A stretch of 64,000 nucleotides of DNA from Stylophora pistillata (Eukaryota): assembly GCF_002571385.2 (NCBI RefSeq), contig NW_019218304.1, forward strand, positions 91,665 through 155,664, in the 5' to 3' direction. The notes under the pieces are model-generated. The model worked only from the letters and a program-made list of their open reading frames with translations, ran no database searches and was not told the DNA's origin. Positions 25,189 through 56,574 of the stretch are shown piece after piece. A program made the translations under genes and the position numbers. Position 1 is the stretch's first letter. Every line of letters begins with the position of its first letter.

Positions 25189-28100
25189 TAGACTCCATGT
25201 TGTCGTGCGCCTGTTCAGTTATAAATCAAAGATGACGTAAAAATGTGGTAAAAAAAAAAAAAAAAAAATCACAAGAAGCGCCGCCAAGTGTTCCACTGAT
25301 GGTCTCACCGCATTTTGACATCTTCTGTGATCTCTTGATGTAGATACTCACGGCAACATGGAATCCAAATTTTTGATATGATAGGAGAAGAAAAATTTGT
25401 TGTCAATGATGACGCCCGTGTCCTCCCGGAGATCACAGGTATAAACCAATACGTACATAATTAAACGTAGCGTAGAAATGGGATTTAAAACTAACTAAAT
25501 GAATACAAATTAATATCTATGAACAAAGGAAGGAGCTTTGCGTAATCCCTCAAATTATTTATTTACGCTGAATTACTTAACATCACTTCATATTTATATC
25601 AATAAAAAAATAACTTCTTTTAACTTCACATTTTTCCCTTTCAACTCTGCACATAAATCAAAGCTATGAAACATACATCTCAGCTAAGTGCCTACGCTCG
25701 TGGCAAATAAATTAAACATCATTTTCAAAAACAATGAATTCCAAATTACGTCGCACAACTATTGTGTTGATTATTAATGAATACATCATACTAACTGTGT
25801 AAAACGGATTAACTTAACAAGCTATGGCGTCACTGAAAGTATTTTGATTAGTTTGTATATTCTCCATAATGTTGTCCACACCGTACCTACTGTGCTGACT
25901 CAGAGAAATCGTTTAACAATCAAGAGCTACTTAGGCTGGTGATCATTTCTTTTATTCTCTTGACCTTAATGTGTGATTCAGGGGTGATATTGTAAGGAGA
26001 AATTAGATATTAGGCACCCTTAGGGGTTAACCCTGTTTTCACCGCAGAAGAAGACATTCTAGCAAACACGACTTTCCTATTTCTTTATGGGGGAGGTAAT
26101 TTGAATCGTATATCAGATACAAACCTATCTGGCCGTGAGAAAGTCCTTGGTTATTTTGAAAATATTGCGGAACGAAGAACCACGTCATTACGTTGTTCAG
26201 TTTCCTTAGCAGAGGAAAGAAACGCTTTACCTTTTTCATACAGTTTACGAAACTATTCTTAAAGTAGATGTTATCTGTTTTTGGTTTCACACCATTACGG
26301 TTGTAATCTATCATCATCGTCATCGTCGTCGCTATCGTCATCATCAATGTTATCATCACAGCCATTAATATCGTCATCGCCATAGTCGTCGTTACCATGA
26401 TCATCATCGTTTTCGTTATTGTCATCATTATCGTCATCATCATCATTGTCATCGCTATCATCGTCATCATTGTTATCGTCATCGTTATCAATATTGCCAT
26501 CGTCATGACTATCGTCGTCATTATTGTTATCGTCATCGTCATCGCCACCATCGTAATCATCATCAACTTCGTCATTGTCATCGTCATCATTTTTGCTCTC
26601 TCCCTTTTTTGTCCAGAATTAAGTGCACAGGTTCTGTCTCCTTTAGTTGACATTATACGATTATCTACCATTATCTTGCTCTAATTTTTCCATTTTCTTA
26701 AGAATAAAGTACCTGAGTTCAGTCGCTGATAATCGAACTTACACTGGTCTTAGCCTTTCAGTCACGAAAAGAAAAAATCACTAACCACCGTAATTCTAAC
26801 CGCTGAAACGATCAAAATTTCGGTGATAGGACTAGGTGACTACAACGCGATTTCAAGAAATTCGATTCTGGGAGGTCTCTTAGTGAACAATGATTTTTGT
26901 ATTAGGATGACGTGTTTACATCCTTGCTACCATCCAGTTCAGATCACGCGTTAGTTACAACTAATGAGTTTGCTCATATTCCGTACAATTGGCTGTGTGT
27001 GAGAGACTTTTGAAGTCTAGCCCCCGCGTATGAATCGACACATGATTTGAATGAACGATAACAGGGATATAAACAGGTTGACCGACCCAATCTATTAACT
27101 CAATTGTACAACATTTTTACGTAATTTCTAAAACAGAAAAATAATGAATGTAAAAAGTCAAAGTCATTGCCCAAACCTACTTCTCTCTTAAGAGTTCAAC
27201 TCAAAGCTTTCTGCGCTTCTTAAGTTTTGTTCAGTGTTCTTTGTTAATTTTCTCTTTTGTCTACACTAATATAGAGTTTGTTTTGTTTTCTTTTAGGTTT
27301 TTTTTTTTTTTTTGGTACACTAGTTTGTGTGTGTATTTGTATTTTGCCTTGTTCTTGTTCGTCGAGTTTAGCCGCGAGGTCTCAAAACTTTGAAGATTTC
27401 TTTCAAGAAGTTTTTCCATTCTATCCCGATTGAAATAGACCTTTTGGTGCTCAAAATGAAAACACAATATACTAAATAATAATTGTGTCGAAAATATAAG
27501 CATGCAGCTCTTTTAAGCGACGAAGTCAGTTTTGGAGTTGAAAACAAAACTGAGTTTTCTGACTTCAACTGAGTTTTTGTGAAGTTGGTTAACTTTTCAT
27601 TGGAACGGTAAATATAAAGCTTCGTTTTTCCAACGGTTGATATCATTTTTAAGTGTTTTAAAATATTTCCTTTGGGAGATTTTGATTTTAAATCGTACAA
27701 TTTCAGAATTTTCAACAATTTTAACACAAACCTACGTAAATTTCCAGCTGTGAATTCTGAGCCGAAAATTTACAATGCTTTGAATACAGATTTAGTCTCA
27801 AATATTTCATGGTCGTTTTTGCCTTGTTCTCTATTCCTAGTTTTCGGGTAGAACACGATTACCTGGTAAACCCGAAACAGTTGACATAAGCTCTTCTTTT
27901 TCGTGCACACCTTGTGTTTGCATGCTATGCTATAAAAGAATTGGTTAACGCTTTAGCTGTGTTCGTATATCGAGTTATGGATGTCAAATTGATTACGTGC
28001 ATGCTTGAGAACTGTAGTGAACTTTTAGAAAAAATTTACGCATATAGCGCTCTTAAATTAGGGAACTTAAGAAAATAAAACTACTTTGAATAAATACAGC

Positions 28101-28925
28101 TTTGTCCATCACTAAACACAGACACACCTTCTCCTTCTTCGAAGTCACATTACCAAGCACTTGTCTTTGGAAGATTTCGATATCGAGGAGCTGCTGGGAG
28201 TTGACCAGTGGTGTGGCACACCAGACGTGTTTGTTGATGACGAATAATTTCTTGACGTTCCTGTGCTTGAGGTGTGCGATGAATATGTTGAACTATGAGA
28301 GCTTGCCGTACCCGAAGAGTAGCTCATGGCTGTACTGCGGTGCGGTGCGCCAAACGAGCTGTTAGAAGCTGAACCAAAACCACTCGATGCCCCACTACTG
28401 GACGAGTAATAACTACTGGTAGGATTAACGGAGCTTCTAGATGGCGCAGCTCGGCTATAAGAAGGTGTCTGAGCGGAACTTGGTGCTCCGCGAGCTCCGG
28501 AATTCCTACTACTTTCATCAGAATACTCGATGATGTACTCTGGGTAGAACTGGTCAGCGTCAAAAACCACATAAATGGTTGGACTGTACTGGTCGTCCAC
28601 ACAAGAGTCGAACAGGTCACTCGATGGGTTGGATGGTTGCTTTGGAGGCGGTCTCCGATAACTGGAGTTGCCTTTAGTGTAAGATCCAACAAGAACTTTT
28701 GCCAAGAACATGAACTGAAACGAATTCGCGTCTTTCTTCGCATAAGCATCGCTGTAGGAGGCATTTACAGCGAAATAACTTCCCTCGCCATAGACAGTGG
28801 CGTTCTTGCCGTTTAGGCGCCAGTCAAAGTTTTGCTTACATATGGCCTCCACAGCATCGGGGCTGGTTCCATGGAACAACCTCTTTTCGTTCAAAGAGTG
28901 ACTACCTCTCTTGATCGCTAACATG
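25189..28925. repeat. Copy 1 of a ~3.7-kb segmental duplication (PARP-B last exon and 3' flank)
   Basis: Colinear with 52571-56251, including a shared MITE, the ATC-rich tract and the terminal PARP exon. Confidence 0.9.
26308..26590. repeat. Degenerate (ATC/GTC)n trinucleotide repeat
   Basis: catcatcgtcatcgtcgtc...; it explains the low-complexity ORFs 26039-26671 and 26397-26684. Confidence 0.9.
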
Positions 28926-31900
28926 TTTTCCTTTTTCCTTTAAAGAAAAAGCGGACAAAAACAAGGCTTCAGGTCAAGAATGTGGTACATCTACCCAACT
29001 ACTGAGGTGAATATATTGTTCTAGTATGTATATATATATATATCTATAAACAAACAAAATAAAGCAAGAAAAGTTTACTTTAACATTATTTCTGCGACGA
29101 TTAGAATATTGTCGGGCGTAAATGCTTGGAGGTAAAAAGAAAAGGATATTCAAAGCGTGCCTTAAGCGCTATTCACTGTTTTAGTATATACTTAATGCCT
29201 TTATCAAGTACATGTAAGTGGAAAATTCCAGCTCTTATTTTCAGAAAAAAAAAAAGATGACAGAACTAAACGCTTACACTAATTTTCGTCTTATGGACAT
29301 AAGTGTTTATTCAGTCAACAGCACGAAATGAGCCAGCGGTCATTTGAGAGTCCTTAACTTTTTAACCCTTAAGAGTGATTAGCATCGAATTTCTCCTTAC
29401 AATATCACCCCTGAATCACACGTTATGGTCACGAGAATAAGGCAAATGATTATTAACTAGAGAAGCTCTTGATTGTTGAACAAATTCTCCTTACAAGCAC
29501 TTAAGGAAATGTATCGAGAACAGTGTGGAGAATAAGCAAACTGATCTTAGGGTCAAAGGTTTAATGAAAGCCATATTAACTCAGCTGTTCAATTACAAGT
29601 ACCTGGTTGCGAATGTGGCAGCATTAAAAAAAAAAAAAAGAAACTTCCGCACAAGACAAGCCTAGAGAAAGCTTTTTGAGATCAATTACCCGTTGCATTT
29701 TGAAATTGAGACCTTCTTCAATTCTTTGGAAATATCGAAATAATCATCTCTTTATATTAACAAAATACCTTTGATACTTCTCCCACATAAAAGAGTTTTG
29801 CACGCGCTCAATTCTACGGATAACGACCCTCTTTTGGATTGAACTTCTAAACAATCTCTCCACTTCTTTGTACTCAGCTGTAACATTGCTTAATGCTACA
29901 CGTGTGTACTGCATATTAACTGGCATAGAGGCCCAATTGCTGGGCTTTCCAGTACTCGATACAGTTGCACTCGTTTTTCCCTTTCTGGATGACCTGCGGC
30001 GAAAAAGGTGAAAAAAAAAAAAAAAACATATGTAAGACAGACATAGCCAAGAATTCAAGCGTAAGTAATGAACCTACCACAACTTTACAGTTATCTGTGC
30101 ATTTTTTTGTTAAGCGACCTTAATGTCCCTCGTTTCCTTGGGAACCATCAAGAAAAAGGGTAATTCAACACAGCGCGAGCATCAAAAGAACAGAACGAGA
30201 ATTTTGTTGAGTCGAACCGCTCCGAGATATTCTGATATTCTGGCGTTCTTGGTTTTACTACCCGCCCCAGACCAGGCCAACATGGCACGTTCTCTGAAAA
30301 GCCACTTCCCTCTCTTCATGCAGTAAACATTGAATACGTGATTAAACACTGTACCTCGTTCCTTTTCTTTTCGATTGAATTACTTCAGTTTAGGTGTGTT
30401 ACCTTACGAATAGGCTACATTACCATTTTTAGAAATTCAGAAATGTAGTCCAATCTTTCGTAAAAAAAAAAAAAAAGGTGCCGTATTGCACCCTCTCCAC
30501 ACTCCCTTAGCCTCAGAGGTGGCCATTGCGAAAGTTTTGACTGTATATTGAAATTACCTTCTAATCTCCCGGACGTCTGCGCTTGATCTAAATTCTGCTG
30601 GTCTTCTTCTTACTTGTCGTGTAGTGCCATACCTCAAGTTTTCTTGTCGCATTTCATGAAAATTCAGTGCATAGTCTTGTTCGGCAATTTTAAACTTAAA
30701 ACAATTTGTGGTGGATGAGAAGGCGTCTTCTATGGGTCTCTGAAGATCGTTACCCTGAAAATATACAAAAATTTTAAATTAGTTATAAATAGTCTTCAGG
30801 AACCCTTGCGGACGCCGCTTCATCCTGATTTGTTTGTTTATACATATATGTTTTCTTTTCATTCTTTTTTTCTTAACGATGTGATCGAAATAACGTTTTC
30901 TAAAGAGTCTACGTCTTAATAAGTCCAAAAACAAAGCTTAAAAAGCCCAATGAGCTTGTTAAATTATTTTCCTCAGTACTACTTTCTTTTGGCATGTTTT
31001 CCATTTCACCCAGAAGTGGCACCTGACATTAAATTTAAGTGAGTCTTACCAAGTAGTCTGAGCCATACGCCAGCCACATGCCATTTTCGTCCTTCCAGTA
31101 CCAAGTCCACGTTGATGCCAAAGGATTACCAAGATTATCGATGGAGGGTTCCGTGTAGAGCCGCCTAATGTCTGCCAAGACTTCAAAATCTTTCTGCACA
31201 AACATCATTTTATTTTCAAACAGGAAATTCACAGGATCCTCTTCATCAAAGAAAAAGAATTCTTCACTGAAAAAGTAGATTTTATGTTAACAAGGATCTG
31301 TGTGCCAATTCAATAACATGAACTTCCGGGTACATGATTTAACAGCTTCCTTATTACTGGCTCCTTTCAATAAGGAATTGGCATCTAGAACAGTATTTTA
31401 AAACATAAACTAAACTAGTGGATCAGTCTTAATCTAAACATAAGGGGCTTGTCAATAAAGGTCTTTTAAATGGATGAGATGAAAGATTGTACCTACACGA
31501 TTTAACAGAACGGATAGCTCAGAATGCCTGAATAACTAAGGTTACAAGGAAGTGAGCTTGTAAACCCACATTTTTAGACTTAAGCCTGTATAAATAGTTT
31601 AGGCTTGCCTCTGCAAACTGAAGTACTCTGTGTTTAAACGACTCTTCTCAACTCACCTTTCGAAAGACAGCTGGAGGCCAGTGGCTGAGCAATCATCCAT
31701 CATTGCGTCACAGTACAATTTCTCTACCTTCTCATTGTCAGTCTCGGTAAAACTCTTCCAGACTCCTTCACCCTCAACTCTGTATTGCCAGTGGTAAGGC
31801 AACGAACAGTGGTGCCCTGAACACTTCATGCCCTTCTTACACTTTCCCAGAAGGAAATCCGAACAGATAGGTGCATCTGGCTTATCACTGTGAACATGAC

Positions 31901-34900
31901 CTGTGAAAATGAAAACAGCAGTGTGACTGATGAAGAAGTTGCGAGATATGACTGAGCATATTTTCGGACTGATATTGCCACAGGATCATCGATTAATGCA
32001 ATACCTTTCTGTTGTCTTACAATGACCACAGATGGAAAATCATTGTAAAAAAAGCTGCTCATGACAAATAAAATTCAAGCAAGTGTAACTTTGCACTAAT
32101 ACTGTATCACAAATATTGCTAAATACATGTGCACAATCAAACTTGCGCTTTCTTGGTAAAAAATACCTGTTTCTCTGCTCTGTGCCAAATCGTCAAACAG
32201 CAAAATAGCCTTCTTCACTGCGCCTGGTTTCAAGTGATCGATTCGAAAACGCTCCAGAATTGCTCTGGTGTGATCAGTAGTCATGGCTGATTCATGCTCT
32301 AAGAGACAACCGCGTCCTTCTCGGGAACACTTTTTTAAGTGGTTGCTACACATGTGAATTCTAGGACAAGCATCGCCACGATCGCAGATACCATCGTTAT
32401 ACTCTACACAAATCAATGGCGAGGAAGACAGCACAAGCCGGCGAAGTTGCTCGTCTGTGAACTTTTCGAGGTTGATCTGAGACAGCAAAGCCTTATCCTT
32501 CTCGTTGCAAAATTGATGATTCCGAGGGCATGTTGCTCCGTTAGCACAGGAGTCAGTGATGTAATCTCTACAGATGTGCAAGAATGAGCAGTTGTCTTTC
32601 GCACAAGTTCCATAGTGGGCGTTGTTGTAACTGAAGCAGAGCCGAGCCTTTGCTGCAAACGCACTCACTTCTGTAATTTTCCCGTCTGGGTTTTCCAAGA
32701 TCAGAAAGCTCCCTTTTCTTTTACGAAACCAAGATTCCACGTCTTTGAATCCAGCAGGAAACAAATCAGTACGTTTAGAAATAACTGAAAACGTAACTGA
32801 GCAATTGTATTCCTTGCACAAGCACTCAAAGACTTTTCGTTCAGATGGTTCACCGCTGTTCCCAGAGGGAAAGATTTCTTTACGAATAGACCCAATCACA
32901 TTGGCTATATGATCAGATGGGTCACAAATGGCAATACCAGTAAGAGGTGAATGACCACTCCGCTGATAGCTAATGTTTTTGCTACCAGTTGCTCCTTTAG
33001 TCATAGTCGAGGGACTTGTCGTTGACACAGTGCTGGTTGTTTTGGCTACAGAAACAGATGTAAGTGAGAAATGGCTGGGACCACTCTGTTTCTTCTCTCC
33101 CTTGCTGTCAACTGCACTGATAGAAGACGACGTACTAGTTGCTGTTGAAATAGTGTCTTTAACAGGGGGGTTAATGTCGACTGAATGTTTCCTCTCGCAG
33201 ACCAGAAGGGCTCGCACAACTGGCTGAGTGTTACCATTCCTGACCTTCAAGCCATATCTATTGAGAACAGCGGTTGCATGAGCCGTCAGTAGAGCTTCTT
33301 CGTGCTCGAGACCGCAAATCGCCTGATCCGCACACTTCTTTCTTATCATATTCTTGCAAATATGTATCTTTCCACAACTCTCTCCAAGTACACAGTGTCC
33401 TTCGTTATAGTCAAGACATACTCGAGGTATTGACAGTTGAACGACCTTACGCAGCTGTTCTTCACTAAAGTCAGTTAACTTAAGTTTAGAAATGAACTTT
33501 CTGCTCTTATCGTACTCAAAACTGTGGTTTCTTTGACATCTACGGCCAAATCTACAAAACCCAGCAATGTAATCTCGGCACACGTGTATATAAGAGCATT
33601 CCTCTTTAGAGCAATGATCCTGGTTAAAACATAATTTTGCTCGTTGACAATGAACGTCCACTTTTACTGTTCCGTCTTCACTTTCCCTAAACAGAAAGCT
33701 TTCTTTCCTTGATTTGAACCATGCAGCGATATCTCCACATCCTTCAGGAAACAATTCTTTTTGTTTCGAGATAACAAGGAAAGGGACAGTACCATTGTAT
33801 TCTTTCAGAATGCAGTCAAACACTGCCTTCTTAGAGGGTGTGTTCTTTTGTGGATCTGGAACAGAGCTGCACGAACTTGAAATGGATGACTTTCGCTTGC
33901 GTTCCGCTGGTGTTTCTTCATTTTGAGAGTTTCTAGGGCTATGAGTGGAATCAGACGAATAATCATTTCCCAAGACCCATTTCTTTACCAAATCGTTTCC
34001 GCTATCATCAACGGGCAAAACGAACGGATCATTACGTACAGCGCTGGCTTTTCCTGCCCCACTTGAAATACAGAGATCCGCCTTTGGTTTCATTTGTGAC
34101 GTGGTTTTGGGTTTAAGAAATTTGCAATCATTTCCAGTCCCTTTGTTGCTTAGTTTTGACTCGTGAATCTGATGAAGCGATCGACTTTCATTCGCAGAGA
34201 GGAAGTTTTTAGAATCAGGTTTGTTGTCTTCTGAAGATGAGTCTGAGAGGCTTTCTTCCTCCTCGTGTATATTTAGAAACCCGGGATGTTTGTTAGAGCC
34301 CGCTGAAGCAGTCGCACAACTCGCCAAGTTGTTGTCGTACTTTGGTATACCCTTCTGTTTCCGCTCTTCCTTTGACTTTAACTGGTCAGGTTTTGGTCCA
34401 TTCCTCCTCGTGTCCACACTATCATTAGAAACCTCTCTGGATTTTGAGCCCGTATGATAATCGTTTGTTCCACCCGAGTTCGACTTGTGGCTTGCCCCAT
34501 GCTGTAAACTGTTTTCGTTTGTGTTATTCTGATTGACAAATTTTGTTAATTCTTCGGCTGGCGTAACCGAGGCCATTTCAACGGTAGTATCATCGCTTAT
34601 GAACTTGCCTTTGTCAAAATAACTCTGCTCTTTCATGATCAAAATACTGCTACAAACAAAGGCAGTGCTCATCGACTGATGTGGCACAAGGTCATACTGC
34701 TTCAGTATTTTCTTGTTGTTAACTTCAGTCAGATTATGCAATAGCCCACAACCACAGGGCAATTTTCGCACTACGTTCGGGCAAATATGAAGATATGGAC
34801 ATTTATCCGACTTACATTTATTTCTCAAATACAACTGACAAACCTGTGGTAGACTCCAGGCGATGATGTTCCGTAATGTTCCATTCGGGTGCTTCTCGAT

Positions 34901-35287
34901 TTTAAGGTCTTTGGTCTTCGCTTCGTTGTCGTTGTCGAAGAAATTGTGCGAACGATGGCAATTACCTTCGCAATTTCCCTCGATGTAGCTTTTACAAATG
35001 TGCCAGAATTTACATGAACCCCTTGTTCTTCTGCACGAACCTCGTTCAAGGTATTGTTGACAAATTTTCTTTTTCAGGTCGATGCGAACACCTCTGACTT
35101 CATCATCAATATCTTTCACCACAACAAAGCGGCCACGGCCGTGATTAATTAGCCAATTCTTCGCATCCAAGTTAGATTTAATGTCTTTCAAAGGCGATGA
35201 ATCCCTCAAAAGTAACGATAACTCTACAAATCCGCCACTACCACAAATAAAATTGAAAACTTTCTCGACCGAAACATCAGTCGCCAT
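28145..35287 (-). CDS. PARP12: PARP-B: ZAP/PARP12-like mono-ADP-ribosyltransferase with 3x (winged helix + 4 CCCH), CCCH, WWE, WWE, PARP, Ser-rich tail and CaaX; about 1598 aa
   Basis: Exons 35287-32167, 31900-31657, 31266-31050, 30754-30558, 29993-29769 and 28937-28145, all GT-AG, 4797 nt open frame, starting MATDVSVEKVFNF. Motifs: ICSDFLLGKCKKGMKCSGHH, LPYHWQY, WTWYWKDENG, VRRRP, LFHGT, NFDWRLNGKNATVYGEGSYF, PTIYVVF..QFYPEY. It ends KSSKDKCLVM*. The symbol indicates family only. Confidence 0.92.
29362..29563. mobile_element. piggyBac-like MITE in PARP-B intron 5
   Basis: Runs from ttaacccttaagagtgattagc to agggtcaaaggtttaa; same family as 7290-7502. Confidence 0.7.
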
Positions 35288-35296
35288 CTTGATTTT

Positions 35297-35306
35297 GAAA
35301 CTGAAA
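35297..35306. promoter_or_regulatory. ISRE-like GAAACTGAAA just upstream of the PARP-B start codon
   Basis: Matches GAAANNGAAA, 10-19 nt upstream of the ATG at 35287. A short motif, so it could be chance. Confidence 0.4.
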
Positions 35307-37655
35307 AACTTCATGGAATCGAGGTACAGAATTCCGCGAAAACGACAACACTCTCCTAACTTGACTAGGGTGGGGAATATAACTTTCTTTCCTTTCTCAT
35401 GTTTTTCTTTTAGGGATGGGGTGAGAAGGGATATCAGTTTAATTGTTTTATGGCTAATATAATGAGAAAAAAAGGATATCTTGTCTCGTCTTATTAACTG
35501 ACCTTGCGTCGAGTACCTCAATATCGCATTGTTCTTTTTTTCTTTTGACAACTGTTTTGGTTTCCAAATAAAACATTGGCCATAGGCCAGCCCGACAATA
35601 ATTTTCACATCTTTTTCTTCCTCAGATATTCCTTATTTTTAGCGTCATGTCATCATCTATGATTATTATTAAAAGACTGAAGCGGGCCAGAAAATACCGT
35701 TTTGTTACTTTGAATGATCACTATAAGTTATGTACATGTACATAAAATACATTTCTCTCCAATTTTTTGGATTTTCATCTTCGGAAGTCTACATTTACCG
35801 CTGGACTCCAGGGAGTTATCACAGGGATTTTATACACAATGGTAAGTGTTTATCGAAGTTGTTTTCGAGCTTCCCGCCATCAAGATTTCACTGAAGTCTT
35901 CAACGGAGATTAAAATCACGAATGCACATTTATCACGGTTCGCCAGGTGAGCTTCGTTGCGCTTGGAAATTTATCCAAACACATACCTGTTGAACATTCC
36001 ATCCTGCGAAGATTTCGTGAGTAGGGAATTTAAAACCCATGTCGTGCCGGGAAAGCAGTGAAATTACGCAAGCAAACAGACTTATATAAATATTCGATCA
36101 GCGGGCAAATTTGCGTATCGAACTTGTCCCGCTCAACGTTTAACAAGTTCACCACTGCTCCTGCGCCGGGTTCTTCAAAGCTGATCGAGTTAAGATAATT
36201 CAGGGATTTTGGAGGTTAAAATATCCATGAAGAGGAAAAGTCATTTCATTCATGCCTATTTTGCCGAGACTTATAAGGCTGGGGTCGCACTAACGCTTTT
36301 GGTGTTTACATTGCATTGGACATAAAATCTGTCATCGCATGCTTGCGACAAGTGCGACCCTTTAGTCGCGACCAGACATAAGGCTCATGTACCCAGACAT
36401 ACCTATGTTCGAAGGACCTAAAGATCAAAAAAGCCGATGTCCTCCCTCGAAGCAGGTCATATCTTGTCTAATGGCCTTAAAATAACAATTTTTTGCTTTT
36501 CCTCTGTCGCAACGTCAATCAAATCCGAAATATCTGCAAAAATTGGATTTTCGAAATTCTGCAAAGACAACACGTCCCCAGTTTTCTTTACAACGTTACA
36601 AAATTCCACTATTCACCTGATTATTCTCAGTATGGGGATTGCTTGTTTTCACCCTTTGGCTCGCAGATCTTTTCCCATCTTTGTCCATCCGACGACGTCG
36701 GTTTAAAGTGGCAAGAGCCAACATTTGCCGTTGGCGAGTGTTGTCAATGCATACAAACCAATAGGGTTTTGTACACTGAACAAGTTAAACAGAGATTTTA
36801 GAAATGTCGCTAGTAAAACTAGCTCTAGCCTCATGTCTACAAAAATTATATTTACTGCTCTTTTCGCGCGTGAAATATTAAGAGTTGACAGTCTGATTTT
36901 AAATATCATTTATGTCGCACAAGTGCGACCTCCATGACTCCGGTGGTGTAAATGTCCCGACATATTTATGGGACATCTTATGACGCGACTTAAAAAATTT
37001 AAGGCCACAGTGCAACCCCTTGCTTTCCTTACGTTCAAGACCGCGATATCGCAAATTTTCTTTTCCCTTTAACAACACAGTTTTCGTTTCCAAAAGAAAG
37101 ACTGGCCCTAAGCCTGCAAGTATAATTTTCTCTTTTCTTCCACAGATAGCGCGGAGTCAATCCCAATTTTTAGTAAACGATCAGACGCAACATCATCATC
37201 TATCATGCGCAACTACCTTTAAAAATAAGTCCGCAATGCGTACGAAATTGAGCAGCTTTCTCAGTGTCTGATGACTTGGTGAGTTTCTATTAGAAGAGCT
37301 AATATCTGATACAGTTAGTTTTCAATATTGTTCCTGTTCATGTAAAGTAACACAATGCTGAGTGTAAGTTTCTATTATCCATTAGGGCACAAAATTATAT
37401 TTTTAGTTGGTTGGGAGCAAAATGTTTACTTTACTTATTGTATCTGGGTTTTGTGGGACTGTATTTTCAATAAAGAACACAAGAAGATTTAGTTGAGGTA
37501 GGTGAATATGGGGTTGCAAGTGGAAGAATCTAGGGAAAAAAGATAGATGCATAACAAAATCAGAACACAAGCAATACTTTAATGAATCATATGTTGGGTA
37601 GTACTCTGAAGTAACATTACATTAAAACTGCTAATACTTTTTAACCCAATAAGAT

Positions 37656-43500: not shown

Positions 43501-45071
43501 TCTTTTTCAGTTTTGAGGAAGCAGGTCTTGTCTCCCTTGGCTTGTTGCCGACTTATTTTTCTTTTTTTTTCAGTCGACGTAAGTTTGTTTTGACACTTTT
43601 TCAGTTGAATTTATAGCCTCAACGCGTCTTTTTTCAATGGGATGTTCTTTCCTTTTACAAATACTGAAATTATGGAACGGTGACAATTTAATAACTCACG
43701 GATTTCACACGATAGAGTATGGAAACAAAGAATACAAAGTAAAAATGCCTGACTAGAAAAAATAAATCTAGTAAAAAAATGGTTATCACAATTGTAAGGT
43801 TGAATAACTGAAACTATTACTATTACGTTTCCATGGCGGTCCGTCTGCAGATAATTTTGTTCACGTTTGTTAGAACTTCCAACTTAATCCTTATAAAACT
43901 TCACTCATTAAACTCTCGATACTGTATGACGCTTAAAGATACACGTCGTTATGATTTGCTGCCCGTAAAATTAACTTGCCTGTACATTTATTACTGACTA
44001 TGCGGCCATATCGACTACTCTACCTTAGCATTCGAGAAGTTTTTTTTTTCGGCTTCCGTTTGGTGAGATTGTTATCGGTTTTTGATTAATACCATTGAAA
44101 AGTGGTATCAACTACGATCCCGCAAGTTGCAACCGGCGAAATTTCAGAATGGGAATGAAAATCAGTCACCGTAATTGGTGGCTCAGACAATCTGCAGTAG
44201 TATTCGTAGACATTTGCAAGTGTTTGCATTTCCATTCCCTCCTGAAAAACACTTGCCTAGACTGCGTCTTAAGGTTTTGACTGTTCCTTTTAGATTGGCG
44301 TTTTCGGATCTCAAACCCTTACACTCTCTCGAGTCGATCGAGTCTTTTTTCACATAAAAAGCTGCACACTTGCACTGCAACGCTGCTTTCTTCTATTTCT
44401 TCGAAATAATTCGCATATTTTCTCGGCTTCTTTTTGACTGGTGGCTGATTTTTGCAAGAAAACTGGCTGCCGTGAGCTCTTTTACGTGCCACAAGGTCTC
44501 ATCGTCGGCGAGTCGGCCGGCGATTTAATTGACAACTCACGGCACGAGCCCGCGTTCTTTTTCTCAAGCAGTGTTACAAAGTAATGTAATCTGCGCATGT
44601 CTGAGATTCTCATGGGGTTACGGTTTCCATGGGTGGGGTACCTTTCCGTGAGGCCTAAATTTTGCGCTATAGAAATCATAAAATTATTAAATCATTATAC
44701 GAAAAAATCCTTAGTCTTTATGCTTTCCACTTTTGGTAGAACAGCCAACAACAATGCATAAAACCATCCCTTCTTTCTCACATGAATTCTTCGTTAGATA
44801 CGGTTTGTTTATGCTCGAGGGACACCAAGATGGCGGATAGTAACCGTTGCTAAGCTATTGGTCACGTGGGTGAAACCCAAGAACGGAAACGAACCTCACT
44901 CGTGAAAAATCACGCAATCACCATTAATCTTGTGACACGATTCGAGAACTGCTAGATATTTTGATTATTATAGATGTTTTATGAATATGAAGATCTCTTC
45001 GAAACAGTAATCAGTGTTTAGACGACACACGGCGTCTTCTCTTGCCATTTAGCCAAATTATTAGATACAAG

Positions 45072-48000
45072 ATGCCTGTCAAACACGCCTCAACAAAACG
45101 TAGCGGAAGAGTTCAACAGACCGATAAACCAGGGTGGGATGGTTTAAGTGGCAAGGTTTCCAACATGGTTGAACAGGCCAAGATGCTTTTTGATTCTTTA
45201 TTTACCATCATCTGGAATCAAGCAAAGAACATTTTCGACAAAATGGATCACTTGAGCGGTCATTCTTCTGCTGGTTACGCGGCAGTTGCGACGATAAAAG
45301 TTATCGCCATATTGTTCATGATTATTGTTGCGGTCGAGTGCATATTTCATTTTCGATCTTATTTCTGGTTGTTATGCGGATATTTGAGTTCTCTCCTATA
45401 TTTCGCTGCTGCGATAATAGTTCGAGGTGCAACTTTGATTTTGGCGAGCGTATGGGCTATTTTGAAGCATCTTTTCGACTTCATCTGGAAAATCCTTATG
45501 GGATCGATAAGAGTTGCCATCTATTACTTGAGGCCCACCATGTTATTCGCTTTCAGTGGCGCGACTACTGTTTTGCATGACCTAATTATAATTTTCTCAA
45601 GATGGGCCTTGAATCTTGGGATTGACTGGAGAAGTTTTTCTCAGCTGTTTTGTTTGTACGGCATGGTGAAAGTGGTTTCGCTTTGGATCAAACACGGCAC
45701 AAGAGTTTTATGTGACAAGATTTCTAGTGCCGTTGAACAGGTCAAAAGGCAATTTGATGCTATGTTTACCATCTTCTCTAACCATGCAAGGATTATTCAA
45801 GACAAACTGGATCGTTTTAGTCGACATTCATTCGCTGGTTACGCAGTGGCGGCGGCCATAAAGATTTGTGTCATGTTTGTAGTGACAGCCTTTGTTGTCA
45901 AGTGCGTGTGGATAATGCTTGGATATCTTTCTATAATATCAATCCAGATCTTGTATTTTTCTGTGATGTTTATCACTAGAGGCACGAGAATGCTCATGAA
46001 TTATATGAGTGCTTCCTGTGAGAATATCCTGATTTCCTTTTGGAAAACGTTGAAGGGCTCAACCATAACTGCCTTTCGTTTTCTTAAATCTTTTCCATTA
46101 CCTTCTTTTACTGTTGTGGCTCTTATTTTATCTTACGTTATAAGTATTTTGCAAATTTGCATTTTGTGTGGTGCATTGATTATTCTTTGTTCAAAGACTT
46201 GGAACAAATATAGAGGAAAAATTCAGCAAGGCGTCAGTTTCTGGATTGGTTTTTGCCACAATGTTTTCAGTACTACTACTCCGGCCAAGACAGGTTTTTA
46301 TTCTTTACTTGCCGCCTGCAAAAGCCTAGCAAGGGTAATTCAAGTCAAAATTGATTGTTTGAGAAGACATTCGTCGGCTGCTAACATGATAGTGAAGGCG
46401 ATCAAAATTGTTGGTATTTTGTTTGTGGTTACCCTTACAGTCGAGACCGTCTTTCATTTCAGATCATATTTTTGGTTGTTGCTACGATTTCTAACTTACC
46501 TCCTACACCTGGCCGTGGCATACATCATCAGAGTTCCAAGCGTAATCTGGAAAAATCTGGTTGCTATTTTAGAGTATGTTCGAAGAGCTAACTCGGAGAT
46601 CTTCCTGGTACTCACCAAACTTGCCCTTGAGCACCTAACAACGATCTCTTCGCTTGCTTCAAATTACTCCAGTGTTTTAAATTACCAAACTAAATCGATC
46701 TCAAAGACTACCGTCAATTTAACAAAGAGCTGGAAGGGTATTTTACAAGTATGCCTCTTGCTTGGGGTACTAGCGCTGGTGTTACTTTGGCGTCTCAGGG
46801 CTAAAGCTTTTAGTAGGAACTTGTTACGAGGTAATGTACTTGCTGTTGAATGGTTGGCCGAGGCTAAAATATGTGACTGACTGCCAACTGATGGGGAGTG
46901 ACATACCAATCAGTCGAAAAGACCGACTGACAGACCAGCCAACCGACTTACTTATTACTGACCGCTTGATCATGATTGGCAGACGAAACAACCAACAAAA
47001 CGACCGACTGCCTGAGTGACGCACTGGCTTGACTGGCTGGCTGGATGACTGACTGACTGGTTGGCGGAGAAGAGGTCGCGCAGTTGTTTGCGCTGACTAC
47101 CTAATCAACTGAATAGGTTTGATTTATAGATTGACCTGTTGATCTTTGAAATGATGTATTACCCTATTTTTTTTTACACCTTTCCGTAGCAGCTGGTTGT
47201 GAGTCCACGCCTTACTGTTGGCAGTTCAAAGAGGAAGATTCGTATTCCTGGAGAACCTTTGGCCCTTCTGACAATGAGGCTTTGGAAGAGCTTTATTGTG
47301 ACGTGGATAATCTGGAAGTTAACGTGAACCTTAAAGATACTGCATTGAGGTAGGACAAAAGAGGAAAGAGTGAAAGGCTATATTCATTAATGTCATAGGA
47401 GGGCACTGCACATGTTTAGTCGAGTAGTTGGATATGTCGTCATTGCAAACACTGTACCGTGTTTATCAGCATGCAATATTAATGAGATCTAGAGGTAAAC
47501 AATAGTCTTAACGGCTTTGCACCATTTGGTATCGGTAATGAATTTGTCAGAATTGCGCGGAGAAATGTTTTTGATTGTTTCTTAAAATGATTAGGTGTGA
47601 TTGCCCGGTTTGATCGTGCAGGCAATCCTCGCTCTGATTAAGACCTTCGCCGTTAGTAGTGACTAGCATTTTAATTACTAAAGCAAACGTCATCGTCAGA
47701 ATTAAGCGAATCCTTGACTCTGAAACTGCCATCCCTCAGGCTGTAAAAATGTTAGTCAGTGAAATTATAACAATCCCTTTCGGGAATGCCTTCATCCGGA
47801 CGTTAAGACTAGTACTCAATCCTTCTTCTTTGCAGCATTTTTATGAAGTCAGCATCACAGATGTCAGTTAATTACGAAGAGATGTCCATGAACTCGCCCT
47901 CCTCTGTCCAGTTCTTGCTCCGTCGATGCTCAACACCGTCATACGTTCAGGAGCCGAACAACAAGTCATCTACACAGTGGGTTTGGTATTGGAAAGACAA

Positions 48001-49729
48001 CAATGGTTGGAAGAAATACGCTGAAACGATAGTAAGAAGTAGTAGAGAGAAATGATTTTGTAATACAAAATATTTGTAATCAAAAGCTTCCGTAAGTTTT
48101 CGTTTTATACAAGGCTCTGTGTTACATGCACTGACTTTGACGTTGAAGTGTGGTGAATGGCGTCTTGTTTGAGTACGTGAGCGCATTTGATAAGTCAATA
48201 CATTATAGTTTTTGGTGACTGCAGTGCACCTGGCTTGAGAAAATATGCTTTTGGACTCACTCTATTTATGTGGAGTTACACAGATAGGCCTTACTTTTCA
48301 TCTTCTTTTTTAGCAGTCATCTGGCGCTAAACAAGAAAAGATAGAAGCTGCCTATTTGAATGATGAACGCACTTATTCCTTTGGAAGTGGTTCACACAAT
48401 TACATTCTCAAATTCTGCGAAACACCAATGTACCAAATGAATACGGACCCAGACCTCCTTACCAAGCGACAAGTTAGAAGGAGGCCATTGTTTGCTTCAA
48501 AATCAGAACCTCAGGACACCAATAGGCAAGTGGCTGCGGATTGCTACTCACTGATATGCAATCCGAAAGGAAGGGATTTGGCCTGCTCGATTGACATAAA
48601 GCAACCCCTTATTTGCTGTCGTCTCAATTGTAATCGACAGGAAGGGTTGGGGTCTGTCAAAGTTTGACGTCTTATAGTGTGCGCGTTATCATCAAGGAGG
48701 AAGCAGGTGTCCTTGTTGAAATACACATTTGATTCCGTTTTCATTTTTAATACCATCATCAGTTCTTTAAAACCTTGGTGTTGCTAAAAGCTGCACGTAT
48801 ATCCCTGTAATTGTAGCAAGTGGTCACCCATTTCCGTTTATCTAGCACATTTCATTTTTCAATCTATTTAGGTATCTGAGAGGCAAAGCTAAAGATTTTG
48901 AACGAACGCGTTTGGAAAAGGACTGTAAGGAATACCGAACTGTAAGTCAGCGTTTTCATGAAACATTGCCGGAACACAAGGCTTCCATATTGATGGTGGA
49001 AAAAATTCAGAATGACGAGTTGCGTGAGAGATACGAAAGGTGAGACTTTTATGCTAAGATATTTTAAGAAACGGTTAATACGATGTACAGCAAATAAAGG
49101 TTGTGTGCAGAAATTACTAGGAACAGCTACACATGTACATAGTGTCTAAGGCTTCAGCCACAATAATCTTGTTTTTCTTCTAGTTTGACTTTGCCTAAGT
49201 CACGGCAGTCGGCCATTAGGTTAGTTTAACTTAGCCACCAAACGCCTCACAACTACACTCTTACTGATCAATCTTCTCTGTGTCTTTTTCCCCCTTCAGT
49301 AAGCGCGAACGAATTCAAAGGAAACTAACACTTAGAGGGCACGATGAGATTGAAAAGTTTCTGTTCCATGGTACAGCATCAGACGTTGTTGATGCCATCT
49401 GCAAACATAATTTTGACCACAGATTGCGAGGGAAGAATGGGACACAATACGGAGAAGGGAGCTACTTTGCTGTAAATGCCTCCTATAGTAATAACTATAC
49501 TGAAAGTGATGGCAAGAGAACGAGGTATATGTTTCTGGCAAGCGTGTTAACTGGTGAATCCAAGCTTGGACGTAGAAACTTACGTCGACCGCCTTTGCAA
49601 GATCCAAGTAATCTTACCAGCGATTTGTACGATTCTTGTGTTGACGACGAAAATCAACCAAAGATCTATGTCATTTTTAACGACGAACAGTGCTATCCTT
49701 CATATTTGATTAAATATGTCTTGAAATAG
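45072..49729 (+). CDS. PARP-C: predicted multi-pass membrane WWE-WWE-PARP mono-ADP-ribosyltransferase; about 974 aa
   Basis: Exons 45072-46830, 47190-47349, 47836-48031, 48314-48525 (GC donor, AG|GCAAGT), 48872-49039 and 49300-49729 give a 2925-nt open frame with the same intron phases as PARP-A and PARP-B. Exon 1 is 586 aa of hydrophobic repeats. Downstream motifs: PYCWQF, WVWYWKDNNG, VRRRP, FLFHGT, NFDHRLRGKNGTQYGEGSYF, YDSCVD, KIYVIF..QCYPSY. Confidence 0.8.
46875..47080. repeat. Degenerate (GACT/GACC)n tetranucleotide repeat in PARP-C intron 1
   Basis: gactgactgcc..gaccgactgacagaccagcc..gactggctggctggatgactgactgactgg. Confidence 0.75.
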
Positions 49730-52228: not shown

Positions 52229-52570
52229 CAAGATAGATCATTTGGGTGGACATTCTTCGGCTAGTTATGCGTTAGTTGTCGCGATAAAAATTGTTGCCAT
52301 ATAATGATGATTATTTCTGCAGTCGTGTGCGTATATCATTTTCGATCTTGGTTCTGGTTATTGTGTGGATTATCGATTTCCCTCGCTCGTTACGCTGCAA
52401 AAATAATAATGAGTTGCGCAATGTATGCCTTCTATGGCATCTCGAGAATCGCAATATATGGCAACTCTCAGTGATCCCACTGGGATCGCTGAGAGATATC
52501 ACATATTACCTCAGGTTCAATACGTAGTTCGCATTATATGGCGTGTTTACTGTTTTGCATTACTGAAATA

Positions 52571-55500
52571 ATAGATTCCATGTTGCTGTGCGCCAGTTCA
52601 ATTTTAAATCAGAAATAACGTCAAAATGTGATAAAAACACAAAAAATGGCACAAGAGGCGCAGCCAAGAGTTCCACTGATGGTCTTACCACATTTTGGCA
52701 TCTTCAGTGATCTCTTAAGGTAGATACTCACGGTAGCATGACTCTATATTGTTGATATGATAGAAGAAGAAAAATGTTGTTAATGATGACGCCAACTATG
52801 CCTTTTTCCTCTAATAGCTCGTAAGTAACAACCAATCGAAATGTATCCATTATTCAGCCCATTTAACTAGATGAGTACAAATAAATATCATTCTGTGAAC
52901 AAATGCAGAAGCTTTGCGTAATCCCTCAAATTATTTATTTACGATAGATTATTTAACATAATTAAAAGGATATATTTTAACTTTCTATTTTTTCTTTATG
53001 CACATGAATGAAACACATTGAAAATACATCTCGAGGCATAAAAAAAAAATTAACATCATTCTCAAAAACAATGAATTCAGCATTGCATCTCACAACTATT
53101 GTGTTGAGTTTTAGTGATTAAATCATACTGATTGTGTAAAATGGATTACCTTAACAAGCCAGGACGTCACTTAATGTATTTTCTTTGACCCCGTTTGCAC
53201 CACAGAAGGAAACTTTCTAGAAAATACGACATTTTTGTTTCGGCATAACCAGGGTAATTTGGATCGTATATCAAATACAAACCTTGTTCGTTTCGTTATT
53301 TTGAAAATATACCTTTAAACGTTGTCCCCTTTCCATAACGAAGAAAGGTGACGAATTAGCTTTTTTAAAGAGGTTAAGAAACCATTCTTTGAGTTAATGT
53401 TATTATTTGCTTTCGTGTCGAAAGTTATCATCCGTCACCATCGTCATCGTCGTCGCTATCGTCATCATCATTGTTATCGTCATCGTCATCAACATCGTTA
53501 TCGTCACCGCCATGGTCATCATCATTTTTATCGTCATTGTCATCTACATCGTCGTCATCATCGCTATTGTCATAATTCTTTTTATAGTCATCGTCATCGT
53601 CGTCGTTATCATTATCAACGTCGTCATCGTCATCGACATCATCATCATTTTTACTCCCAATGTTCCTTTCTTTGTCAAGAATAAAGTGCATAGATTCTGT
53701 CTCTTTGAGTTGACATTATTATTTGTTTTATCATTATTACGATTATCTGTCATTTTTATCCACATCATTATCGTAATCGTCATCATGTTATCATTATCAT
53801 CATCATCATCATTATTGTTGAACTCATTTTTCCTTTTTCGGAAGAAATGAAGTACCTGAGTTCTGTCGCTGATAATTGAACTTAAACTGGTCTTAGCCTT
53901 TCACTTACATCCACGAAAAAGAAGAAAGAAAAGAAGAAATTCAATTCTGGGAAGTCTCTCAGTGAATAATGATTTATGTATATGAATAACATGTTTACAT
54001 CCTTGCTATCATCCATTTCAAAACATGCGTTAATTTATTGAGGCAATTAAAACTACAGCTTTTTTCATATTCCCTACACTCGGCTGCGTTTGGGAATTGG
54101 TAAATTCCAGCCTCCTCTTTTGATTTTGATGAACGATAACAGGAATATAAACAGGTCGATCGACACAATCTGTTCATTGAATTGTACAGCAATTTACGTA
54201 ATTTCTGAGAAAAAATATAAGTTATGTTATTGCCCAAACCCAATTCTCTCTTTTAAAGAGTTCAACCTCAAGCTTTCTGCGCTTCTTAAGGTTTGTTTAC
54301 TCTTCTTTGTTAGTTTTTCTGTTTTCTTTTTAGTCTAGAGTTTGTTCTTGTTTTCTTTTATGTTTTTTTTAATTTTTTACACTGGTTTGTGTGTGTGTGT
54401 AATTTGCCTTGCTCTTGTTCGTCGAGTTAAGCTACGAGGTTTTAAAACTTTAAAAATTGTTTTTTTATTCTATACCGATCGAAATCGACCTTTTGGGGCT
54501 CAAAATGAAAAGAAAATATCCTGAATAATACTTTTGTCAAAAAATAAATAATAATAATAAGCCTGCAGCTCTTTCAAGCGACGAAATCAGTTTTGAAGTT
54601 GGAAACAAGAATGAGTTTTCTGACTTCAACTGAGGTTTTTCGAAGTTGGTAACTCTTCATTGGGACGGTAAATATTATTTAGAATTGTTGATATGTCTCA
54701 AATGAAAGTATTGTTCAAAGGAAGATTTTGTTTTAAAATCGTACAATTTTCAGAATTGTCAACTGACAAAGTTACGCAATTTTCTGGTGGGTAAATTCTA
54801 GTAATCACTACAAGAACAATAAATCTACCACCCGAGTCTCGCAAAGGCAAAGAAATTGCATGTTTATCGCTTCGTTTTTCAAACGGTTTATATCATTTTT
54901 AAGTGTTTTAAACTATTTCCCATAGCATATTTTGATTTTAAAGTCGTACAATTTCAGAATTTTTAAAGTGTTTAACACAAACCTACGCAAATTTCCTGCT
55001 GTGAATTCTAGTAAACAACGATTCAAAACGCTGAATGTACTACTCGGTTTCGTGCATTCAAGAAACTCGTTCGTTTTTCGCTTCTGAGCCGAAAATTTAC
55101 AATTCTTTGAATAAAGGTTTAGTCTCAAAATATTTTATGGTCGCTTTTTCCTTGTTATCTATTCCTAGTTTTAGGATAAAACACTATTACCTGGTAAACC
55201 CGACACATTTTTCATAAACTCTTCTTTTTTGTGCACAACTTGTTTCTGCATGCCATGCTACAAAAGAATTGGTTAACGCTTTAGCTGTGCGTATATCAAG
55301 TTATGATGTCAAATTGATACGTGCATGCTTGAAAACTTGAGCTTTTCGAAGAAATTTACGCCCTCAGTGCTCTTAAATTAAGGAAATCCAAGAGAATAAA
55401 CCTTCTTTCAAGAAATACAGCTTTGTACATTACTAGTAGAAACACAGACACACCTTCTCCTTCTTCGAAGTCACATTACCAAGCACTTGTTGTCACTGGA

Positions 55501-56251
55501 AGATTTCTTTGTCGAAGAGCTGCTGGGAGTTGACCTGTGGTGTGGCACGCCCGAAGTGTTCGTTGATGATGAATGATTCCCTGAAGTTCCTTTGTTTGAG
55601 GTGTGCGATGAATTTGTTGTAATAAGAGAGCTCGGAGAACAACCCGAATTGTACGGAGTGCCAGACGAGCTGTTAGAAGCTGAGCCATAAGTAATTGATG
55701 CCCCACCAGTGGATGAGTAAGTAACTACTTGTAGGATTAACTGAGCTTCTAGATGGGGTAGCTCGGCTAAAAGAAGGTGCTGCATAGGCTCCTGCCCGAG
55801 CGGAACTTGGTGCTCCGCGACCTCCAGAATACCTACTACTTTCATCAGAATACTCGATGATGTACTCTGGGTAGAACTGGTCAGCGTCAAAAACCACATA
55901 AATGGTTGGACTGTACTGGTCGTCCACACAAGAGTCGAACAGGTCACTCGATGGGTTGGATGGTTGCTTTGGAGGCGGTCTCCGATAACTGGAGTTGCCT
56001 TTAGTGTAAGATCCAACAAGAACTTTGGCCAAGAACATGAACTGAGACGAATTTGCGTCTTTCTTCGCAAAAGCATCGCTGTAGGAAGCATTTACAGCGA
56101 AATGACTTCCTTCAACATAAAGATGGGTGATCTTTCCGTTCGAGCGCCAGTCAAAGTTTTGCTTACATATTGCCTCCACAGCATCGGGGCTGGTTCCATG
56201 GAACAACCTCTTTTCGTTCAAAGAGTGACCGCCTGTCTTGACCGCCAACAT
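52571..56251. repeat. Copy 2 of the ~3.7-kb segmental duplication
   Basis: Colinear with 25189-28925. It lacks the MITE found at 25860-26030 and includes the ATC-rich tract at 53425-53815. Confidence 0.9.
55471..56251 (-). pseudogene. PARP-D: orphan copy of the PARP-B terminal exon (PARP domain and CaaX tail)
   Basis: Close to PARP-B exon 6, but the splice acceptor and first 13 nt are replaced by unrelated DNA. GSYF is changed to GSHF (NAD-binding Tyr lost), and a +1 frameshift near 55720 moves DNKCLVM* out of frame. Confidence 0.85.
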
Positions 56252-56574
56252 GAAAGCGTTATTAATAATAAGCGTTAAAATTATATTTCACATTTCGAAT
56301 GTGAACTGTTTAATCATGCCCAGGGGTGTTGGGAGCTCGCTACAAAATTGTTTATTGCCCCCAACCCAGGGGGAGAATTTTCGAAATAAAGTCGAATAAA
56401 AACCGCAATGTCCTTGGGTTTCCCAGGGGTGTCCCGGGGGTCGATTCCCGGGCAAGCCAATGATAAATGCATAAGGCACAAAAGTTCTGCAAACCTGCGG
56501 GGTGTAATGTGACTGTTAGTGTTTACCTATACAATGCAAATGAATAAAGGCTGTCATTCTGTCATTCTGTCATT

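What the first reader, a model, noticed from the sequence alone, without database searches (positions are those of the whole stretch)
32167..35287. PARP-A and PARP-B apparently reached three modules independently (alpha-alpha-beta and alpha-beta-beta)
Seen: B module 1 (VFNFICGSGG, CKFWHICKSYIEGNC, HPNGTLRNIIAWSLPQVC) resembles A modules 1 and 2 (CRFWHLCKEFLEGTC; YPNGTLRKIISHSFPRIC). B modules 2 and 3 (VFDCILKEYNG..DIAAWF..FSEEQLR; VFECLCKEYNC..DVESWF..FTDEQLR) resemble A module 3 (VFQYICKEHNG..DISAWF..FSEEQLR). Inference: a two-module ancestor duplicated a different module in each paralogue, or a four-module ancestor lost different ones. Either way this suggests selection on module number.
Basis: partly seen in the sequence, partly recalled or inferred. 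Interest (0 to 1): 0.7.

Follow-up and report, generated by a model that had tools for sequence, protein, structure and literature searches.

The report
Coral antiviral PARPs with tandem modules
Two neighbouring coral genes related to the human antiviral protein ZAP each carry three copies of its zinc-finger RNA-recognition domain, in different mixes; relatives carry one to five copies, and this gene likely came down to three from four, so three is likely not a selected number.

Summary
Gene A (9237+) and gene B (35287-) are stony-coral ZAP/PARP12-like genes. Each first exon holds three copies of the ZAP N-terminal four-zinc-finger domain. The six modules split ((A1,A2,B1),(A3,B2,B3)) at 100/100; grouping by position or by gene is rejected (AU p<1e-4). 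Homologues change the history. The B family has three beta lineages (x, y=B2, z=B3). An origin of x after window B's line split off is rejected (p 0.0003 and 0.0002), so the B ancestor likely had four modules and B lost one. Whether A's alpha pair postdates the A/B split is unresolved (AU 0.49, 0.20). Selection for 'three' is not supported: B-family proteins carry 2 (21), 3 (53, three different triplets), 4 (5) or 5 (1) modules of 80, and this genome also holds two-module and one-module genes. The A family, however, is three-module in 22 of 22. Module classes differ at the ZAP RNA-contact positions; only A3 is ZAP-like. An antiviral RNA-sensing role is inferred, not tested. Two look-ups of the scan's earlier notes found nothing on this.

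The parts
34658..35278 (-). Gene B module 1, alpha class ZAP N-terminal domain (winged-helix-like head plus four zinc fingers)
   Evidence: profile search; trees; model and fold match; coordinates
33842..34657 (-). Gene B low-complexity linker, about 270 aa; where the lost beta-x module would have sat; no relic found
   Evidence: beta-x profile, E 0.19
33185..33841 (-). Gene B module 2, beta-y lineage
32183..32851 (-). Gene B module 3, beta-z lineage; identical to module 3 of copy B' on G000:C186 in the assembly
32167..35287 (-). Gene B first coding exon holding all three modules
29769..31900 (-). Gene B exons for fifth zinc finger, WWE domains and pre-PARP segment (about 31657-31900, 31050-31266, 30558-30754, 29769-29993)
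   Evidence: Pfam; tblastn; splice joints; GT..AG
28145..28937 (-). Gene B last exon: PARP domain, ends in CLVM (CaaX-like)
   Evidence: PF00644 E 5e-20; ORF; joint
9252..9881 (+). Gene A module 1, alpha class
10137..10775 (+). Gene A module 2, alpha class
11442..12119 (+). Gene A module 3, beta class (A3 lineage); the only class with ZAP-like residues at the finger-2 contact positions
12971..16376 (+). Gene A downstream exons (zinc finger, WWE, PARP), mapped by similarity; splicing not tested
   Evidence: tblastn; PF00644 E 1.8e-17
20758..20961 (-). Isolated fragment of an alpha-module start between A and B (relic)

Best explanation
A and B are coral ZAP/PARP12-family genes whose first exon holds three copies of the ZAP N-terminal zinc-finger domain in two different mixes (alpha-alpha-beta and alpha-beta-beta); these likely arose by repeated duplication and loss of whole modules within that exon, with B likely reduced from a four-module ancestor, and the proteins likely act as antiviral sensors that would bind RNA or partners through several unlike modules and signal through the WWE-PARP half. 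History (inferred): an old alpha-beta pair; the A line fixed alpha1-alpha2-beta; the B line expanded to alpha-x-y-z and its descendants dropped x, y or z in different combinations. What is kept is the module classes and their order (alpha first, beta after), not a count of three. Function (inferred): A3 is the best candidate for direct RNA binding; alpha modules, with a shortened finger 2, likely bind something else or serve as scaffolds; a tandem array would give in one chain the multivalency that vertebrate ZAP gets by multimerising.
For: Shown: module classes and trees. Beta lineages x, y, z are each a starred clade with the four-module protein P0106 at the base; x copied from y or from z after the split from window B's line rejected, p 0.00026 and 0.00017; same topology without the mixture model and with 3 long rows left out; P0106 outside all other B genes in a concatenated tree, 91/87. 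Architectures of 80 B-family proteins: a-y-z 45, a-z 15, a-x-z 7, a-y 6, a-x-y-z 5, a-x-y 1, a-x-x-y-z 1; A family 22 of 22 a1-a2-b. The two-module gene of this genome (G000:C94) nests among x-bearing genes, so it is a reduction. Modules match ZAP N-terminal structures by profile (E 3.6e-19, positions 35-209 of 220) and by fold (5 of 5 hits at E<=0.001 are ZAP for each of two models). B is spliced to WWE-PARP exons in RNA contigs of three studies. Nematostella XP_001636351.2, an isoform of the alpha-alpha-beta protein P0116, is reported as strongly induced by 2'3'-cGAMP (PMC11784840, section read). ZAP acts by multivalent binding (PMC11685948, passages).
Against: A clade of x-bearing genes is not rejected (p 0.154), so x could have been gained once from an unsampled donor; x has a long stem (0.40) and could be displaced. 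No x relic in B's linker. Three modules is the commonest count (53 of 80 in B, 22 of 22 in A), though the sample is biased by the query and its length window and rows are near-copies. Most homologues are first-exon ORFs without gene models; some short forms may be broken or cut genes, not checked one by one. Human PARP12 has this domain and showed no RNA binding (PMC8102003, passages). The models align to ZAP end to end but with TM 0.43-0.49 and rmsd about 11 A, so the domain arrangement may differ. No binding or antiviral test exists for these proteins.
Confidence: 0.62

Rival explanations
1. One reading: a two-module ancestor duplicated alpha in A and beta in B, and selection favours three modules.
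For: Best alpha tree with outgroups joins A1+A2, but at 51/66; B betas group apart from A3, 90/73 with two outgroup rows inside; two-module relatives lie outside the coral clade; three is the modal count; Nematostella likely a third route to three.
Against: B's line needs two beta duplications and a loss; counts of 1-5 in the family and 1, 2, 3 in this genome; the three-module B forms are three different triplets.
Confidence: 0.15
2. The A/B ancestor already had several modules (alpha-alpha-beta or more); B lost an alpha and A lost betas, so most of the difference is differential loss.
For: A1+B1 (p 0.49) and A2+B1 (p 0.20) not rejected; A3+beta-y not rejected (p 0.21); the six-module tree prefers A1+B1 (86.5/80) and the 94-row tree rooted by beta joins A2+B1 (99/99, long-branch warning).
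Against: A3+beta-z rejected (p 0.016); the alpha result flips with outgroup and model, so none of it is positive support.
Confidence: 0.13
3. Modules were exchanged between paralogues (conversion or unequal crossing-over), so module trees do not trace one gene history and beta-x may have been imported.
For: B and B' are about 100% identical from module 3 through introns and WWE exons but have dS 0.73 and 0.49 in modules 1 and 2; alpha and beta trees place anemone genes differently, coral-beta monophyly p 0.052.
Against: Within the B family the alpha, y and z trees give largely the same gene groups; no donor for x was found among 235 proteins classified.
Confidence: 0.1

Closest known systems
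Vertebrate ZAP (ZC3HAV1/PARP13) and PARP12
   Same: N-terminal four-finger domain, fifth finger, two WWE, PARP domain in the same order; B ends in a CaaX-like CLVM as ZAP-L ends in CVIS (PMC8568172, passages).
   Different: Vertebrate proteins have one N-terminal domain; these have three, of unlike classes. The CpG-contact set K89, Y98, K107, Y108 (PMC8102003) is approached only by A3. The PARP His and Tyr are intact here, unlike mammalian ZAP. A has no CaaX end.
Nematostella vectensis PARP12-like XP_001636351.2 / XP_032241892.1
   Same: Alpha-alpha-beta array plus C-terminal half, CaaX-like end CSVM; reported cGAMP-induced (PMC11784840).
   Different: Its two alpha modules fall outside the coral alpha clade (100/100), so it is probably a separate duplication. 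The section read does not describe the tandem array.
Branchiostoma PARP12-like XP_019646028.1 and XP_078703702.1
   Same: Two modules; the second groups with beta (96/87), the first with alpha (82/86, not starred).
   Different: Two modules only; the link of module 1 to alpha is weak.

Membership tests
ZAP/PARP12-like zinc-finger PARPs | N-terminal domain with four CCCH-type fingers | tested here: met
   Profile hit to ZAP structures E 3.6e-19; PF25261 above cut-off in A and B; Cys/His invariant in 10 of 10 modules, finger 4 of alpha shortened
ZAP/PARP12-like zinc-finger PARPs | Zinc finger-WWE-WWE unit followed by a PARP domain in one transcript | tested here: met
   B: exons by Pfam and tblastn, joined by splice joints in RNA contigs. 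A: by similarity only. WWE Pfam scores are below the curated cut-off on single exons.
ZAP/PARP12-like zinc-finger PARPs | Catalytic triad of an active mono-ADP-ribosyltransferase (H-Y-I in PARP12, recalled) | tested here: inconclusive
   FHG, (S/A)YF and PTI motifs present in A and B; the third position is assigned from recall; activity not testable
ZAP proper (CpG-specific) | Contact residues K89, Y98, K107, Y108 in finger 2 | tested here: not met
   by position: A3 K 17/22, F or L 22/22, R 19/22, F or Y 19/22; alpha K,G,G/N,R/L; x R,R,S,R; y R,F,Q,R; z R,N,P,R. Y98 mapping is approximate because the loop length differs.
ZAP proper (CpG-specific) | Tetrapod ZAP clade; TRIM25/KHNYN-dependent RNA degradation | not tested
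   No vertebrate sequence was in the trees; PMC8102003 restricts ZAP proper to tetrapods
ZAP proper (CpG-specific) | RNA binding and antiviral activity | not testable with these tools
   Needs bench assays

The most novel reading that the evidence does not exclude
Corals run a combinatorial RNA-sensor repertoire: arrays of one to five functionally distinct ZAP domains (alpha1, alpha2, A3, x, y, z) are gained, lost and exchanged on a shared WWE-PARP effector half, giving in one chain the multivalent reading of viral RNA that vertebrates get from ZAP-TRIM25 multimers; B and B' are two ancient recognition halves on one homogenised effector half.
Probability: 0.25. Interest if true: 0.75.

Novelty: new variant of a known kind. 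Interest (0 to 1): 0.46.

Why it matters
PMC8102003 states that invertebrate genomes typically hold one ZAP/PARP12-like gene. This genome holds at least six loci with the domain (A, B, B', C94, C937, C1180; C937 and C1180 may be two versions of one gene), and the domain itself is tandemly multiplied. Seven full-text searches listed no paper on such arrays; only the held library was searched. Natural arrays of unlike ZAP domains make two open questions testable: what the domain bound before CpG specificity arose, and whether covalent multivalency replaces cofactor-driven multimerisation. The claim of convergence on three modules does not survive, which lowers the surprise.

Tried and rejected
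Grouping by position or by gene: rejected. Two-module B-family genes as survivors of the ancestor: rejected for C94 and kin, P0054 and P0073, which nest among three- and four-module genes. Rooting alpha with beta alone: gave A2+B1 at 99/99 with a long-branch warning and did not hold with closer outgroups, so not used. Search for a beta-x relic in B's linker: none. Search for shorter relatives of A: 6 hits among 3435 candidates, fragments only. C186 and C519 as ordinary haplotypes: outside the B/B' block no long near-identical synteny over 120 kb against 132 kb. Positive selection between B and B': dN/dS 0.23 and 0.25 in modules 1 and 2 (pairwise count), no sign of it on average. Contig depths cannot tell alleles from paralogues without a single-copy baseline. 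Taxon names for the key early-branching proteins P0106 and P0110: none on record. Earlier scan notes: 6 listed, none relevant; none. Rows left out: careful trees used 46-47 chosen rows of 277-289 modules; groups for the AU tests were named after seeing the fast trees, so p-values are somewhat generous. No complex was predicted. No supplements were read; Fig. 7E and data S2 of PMC11784840 may show these architectures.

Full report
What is there. The window holds two long ORFs, A (9237-12239, +) and B (35287-32096, -). Each is the first exon of a gene that continues into zinc-finger, WWE and PARP exons. For B, RNA contigs of three studies show four splice joints down to the PARP exon, at GT..AG sites, and the remaining intron is seen in a fourth run on the stretch shared with B'.

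Each module is a whole ZAP N-terminal domain. A profile of ten modules hits the solved ZAP domains at E 3.6e-19 over positions 35-209 of 220. Models of B1 and B3 (pLDDT 92.4 and 91.5) find only ZAP at E<=0.001, 5 of 5 hits each, aligned end to end, but with TM 0.43-0.49 and rmsd about 11 A; the local folds agree and the overall arrangement may not.

Six modules give ((A1,A2,B1),(A3,B2,B3)) at 100/100; trees by position and by gene are rejected (p-AU 1.4e-5 and 5.3e-5).

Module counts. 235 proteins (99, 133, and A, B, C94) were scored with eight lineage profiles; 136 had at least one strong module. The A family is alpha1-alpha2-A3 in 22 of 22. The 80 proteins with a B-type alpha and at least one beta are a-y-z 45, a-z 15, a-x-z 7, a-y 6, a-x-y-z 5 (one with a partial alpha), a-x-y 1 and a-x-x-y-z 1. 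The other 34 rows were single-module, alpha-less or distant forms and were not counted. So three is the mode (53 of 80) but it is made of three different triplets, and the sample leans to the query. In this genome, C94 encodes alpha-z followed by WWE and PARP exons, and C937 and C1180 encode a single alpha module split by an apparent short intron. More distant animals have their own arrays: two and three modules in Ptychodera, two in Pomacea and Branchiostoma, up to seven in unnamed proteins.

Beta history. With outgroups, beta falls into A3 (100/100), x (100/99), y (99/97) and z (100/97); B2 is y and B3 is z. The four-module protein P0106 is the first branch in each of x, y and z, and lies outside the other B genes in a concatenated tree (91/87). 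It shares a contig length of 481,973 with the A-type protein P0110, which suggests the same A-B linkage as in the window. If x had been copied from y or z after window B's line split off, it would nest there; both are rejected (p 0.00026, 0.00017). The simplest reading is an alpha-x-y-z ancestor and loss of x in B. Against it: a clade of x-bearing genes is not rejected (p 0.154), which leaves a single import of x from an unsampled source; B2 and B3 as sister lineages is not rejected either (p 0.18); and no relic of x remains. A3 with z is rejected (p 0.016), A3 with y is not (p 0.21).

Alpha history. Coral A1, A2, B1 and the single-module genes form one clade against other two-module relatives and Nematostella (100/100). 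Inside it nothing is resolved: A1+A2 is best at 51/66, A1+B1 p 0.49, A2+B1 p 0.20. A two-module and an alpha-alpha-beta ancestor are both open. Nematostella's alpha-alpha-beta protein has both alphas outside the coral clade; a1 with A1 is rejected (p 0.027), a2 with A2 is not (p 0.08). Alpha and beta trees disagree on where anemone genes sit relative to A and B; coral-beta monophyly is borderline (p 0.052). This is unexplained. The alpha-beta pair may be older than the cnidarian-bilaterian split: Branchiostoma module 2 groups with beta (96/87), module 1 with alpha only weakly (82/86).

The modules are not interchangeable. At the positions matching ZAP's RNA contacts K89, Y98, K107, Y108 (PMC8102003, passages; mapped through the solved sequence), each class has its own signature. 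A3 is K, F/L, R, F/Y in most of 22; alpha has lost the aromatics and has a shorter loop; x, y and z differ again. So 'three' in A and 'three' in B are different machines, which removes the basis for reading them as convergence on a number.

How it likely works. Inferred from family knowledge, not tested. The N-terminal array would bind RNA or protein partners, the finger-WWE-WWE unit binds poly(ADP-ribose) in human PARP13 (PMC11784840, section 10 read), and the PARP domain, with its His and Tyr intact, would modify targets. B ends in a CaaX-like motif, as do 11 of 16 long relatives inspected (the A-type proteins do not), and farnesylation is needed by ZAP-L (PMC8568172, passages). The Nematostella relative is reported among the genes most induced by cGAMP (the primary paper was not read). 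ZAP needs multivalent contact with about 15 spaced CpGs (PMC11685948, passages), so a tandem array is a plausible shortcut. Human PARP12 shows no RNA binding, so RNA binding cannot be assumed for alpha, x, y or z.

B and B'. The two copies are 64-83% identical in DNA over modules 1-2 and 98.5-100% from module 3 through introns and WWE exons; dS is 0.73, 0.49 and 0 for the three modules. Both 5' halves occur in the same runs (2 of 2 laid on both: X1 depth 56.4 and 43.9 against about 82 shared; RNA run X15 61.2 and 22.8 against 88.1) and their contigs end at the same junction. So both forms are real and in an RNA library; the exact 100% may be assembly collapse, since contigs show two versions there. 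B module 1 is closer to an unnamed relative (83%) than to B' (73%). Ancient alleles and converted paralogues both fit; contig depth cannot decide, and X1 may not be independent of the assembly.

Literature. Read: PMC8102003 (passages), PMC11685948 (passages), PMC8568172 (passages), PMC11784840 (passages and section 10). Others were seen as listings only. Seven searches listed nothing on tandem ZAP domains in corals; figures and supplements were not seen.

Verdict. Real, a new architectural variant of a known antiviral family, with a birth-and-death history. Interest 0.46.

Noticed in passing
window 30161-35378 and G000:C186:419-5648 (L018): Copy B' has old, divergent modules 1-2 (dS 0.5-0.7) on a near-identical module 3, introns and WWE exons; both halves co-occur in the runs laid. 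Ancient alleles or gene conversion.
   Followed up: partly
window 44991-49729; similar on G000:C186 12-48 kb and C519 beyond the window (window coordinates 65394-71100): A repeated gene type with a long hydrophobic, helix-rich first ORF (no Pfam hit) followed by WWE and PARP exons: a possible membrane-anchored PARP array.
   Followed up: no
window 52566-56287: Partial duplicate of B's last exon and downstream DNA (86% over 1.2 kb to 27755-28925), with a changed PARP motif region and a frameshifted tail; no upstream module exon seen.
   Followed up: no
window 20758-20961 (-): Isolated start of an alpha module between A and B, probably a relic of another family member.
   Followed up: partly
G000:C937 (L023, L024) and C1180 (L025, L026): Single-alpha genes with an apparent intron inside the module; a PARP exon follows on C1180, and part of the C937 gene is present twice.
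   Followed up: partly
G000:C94 L021:4303-5832 (-): A hydrophobic-ORF plus WWE gene lies head to head with the two-module gene, the same pairing as B and its neighbour in the window.
   Followed up: no
proteins P0114, P0118-P0121, P0127: Unnamed proteins with four to seven ZAP-type modules forming their own clade: an independent, larger expansion.
   Followed up: no
window 22214-23131 (-): Single-exon cation-efflux-like membrane protein (PF01545, E 2.9e-5, below cut-off) between A and B.
   Followed up: no
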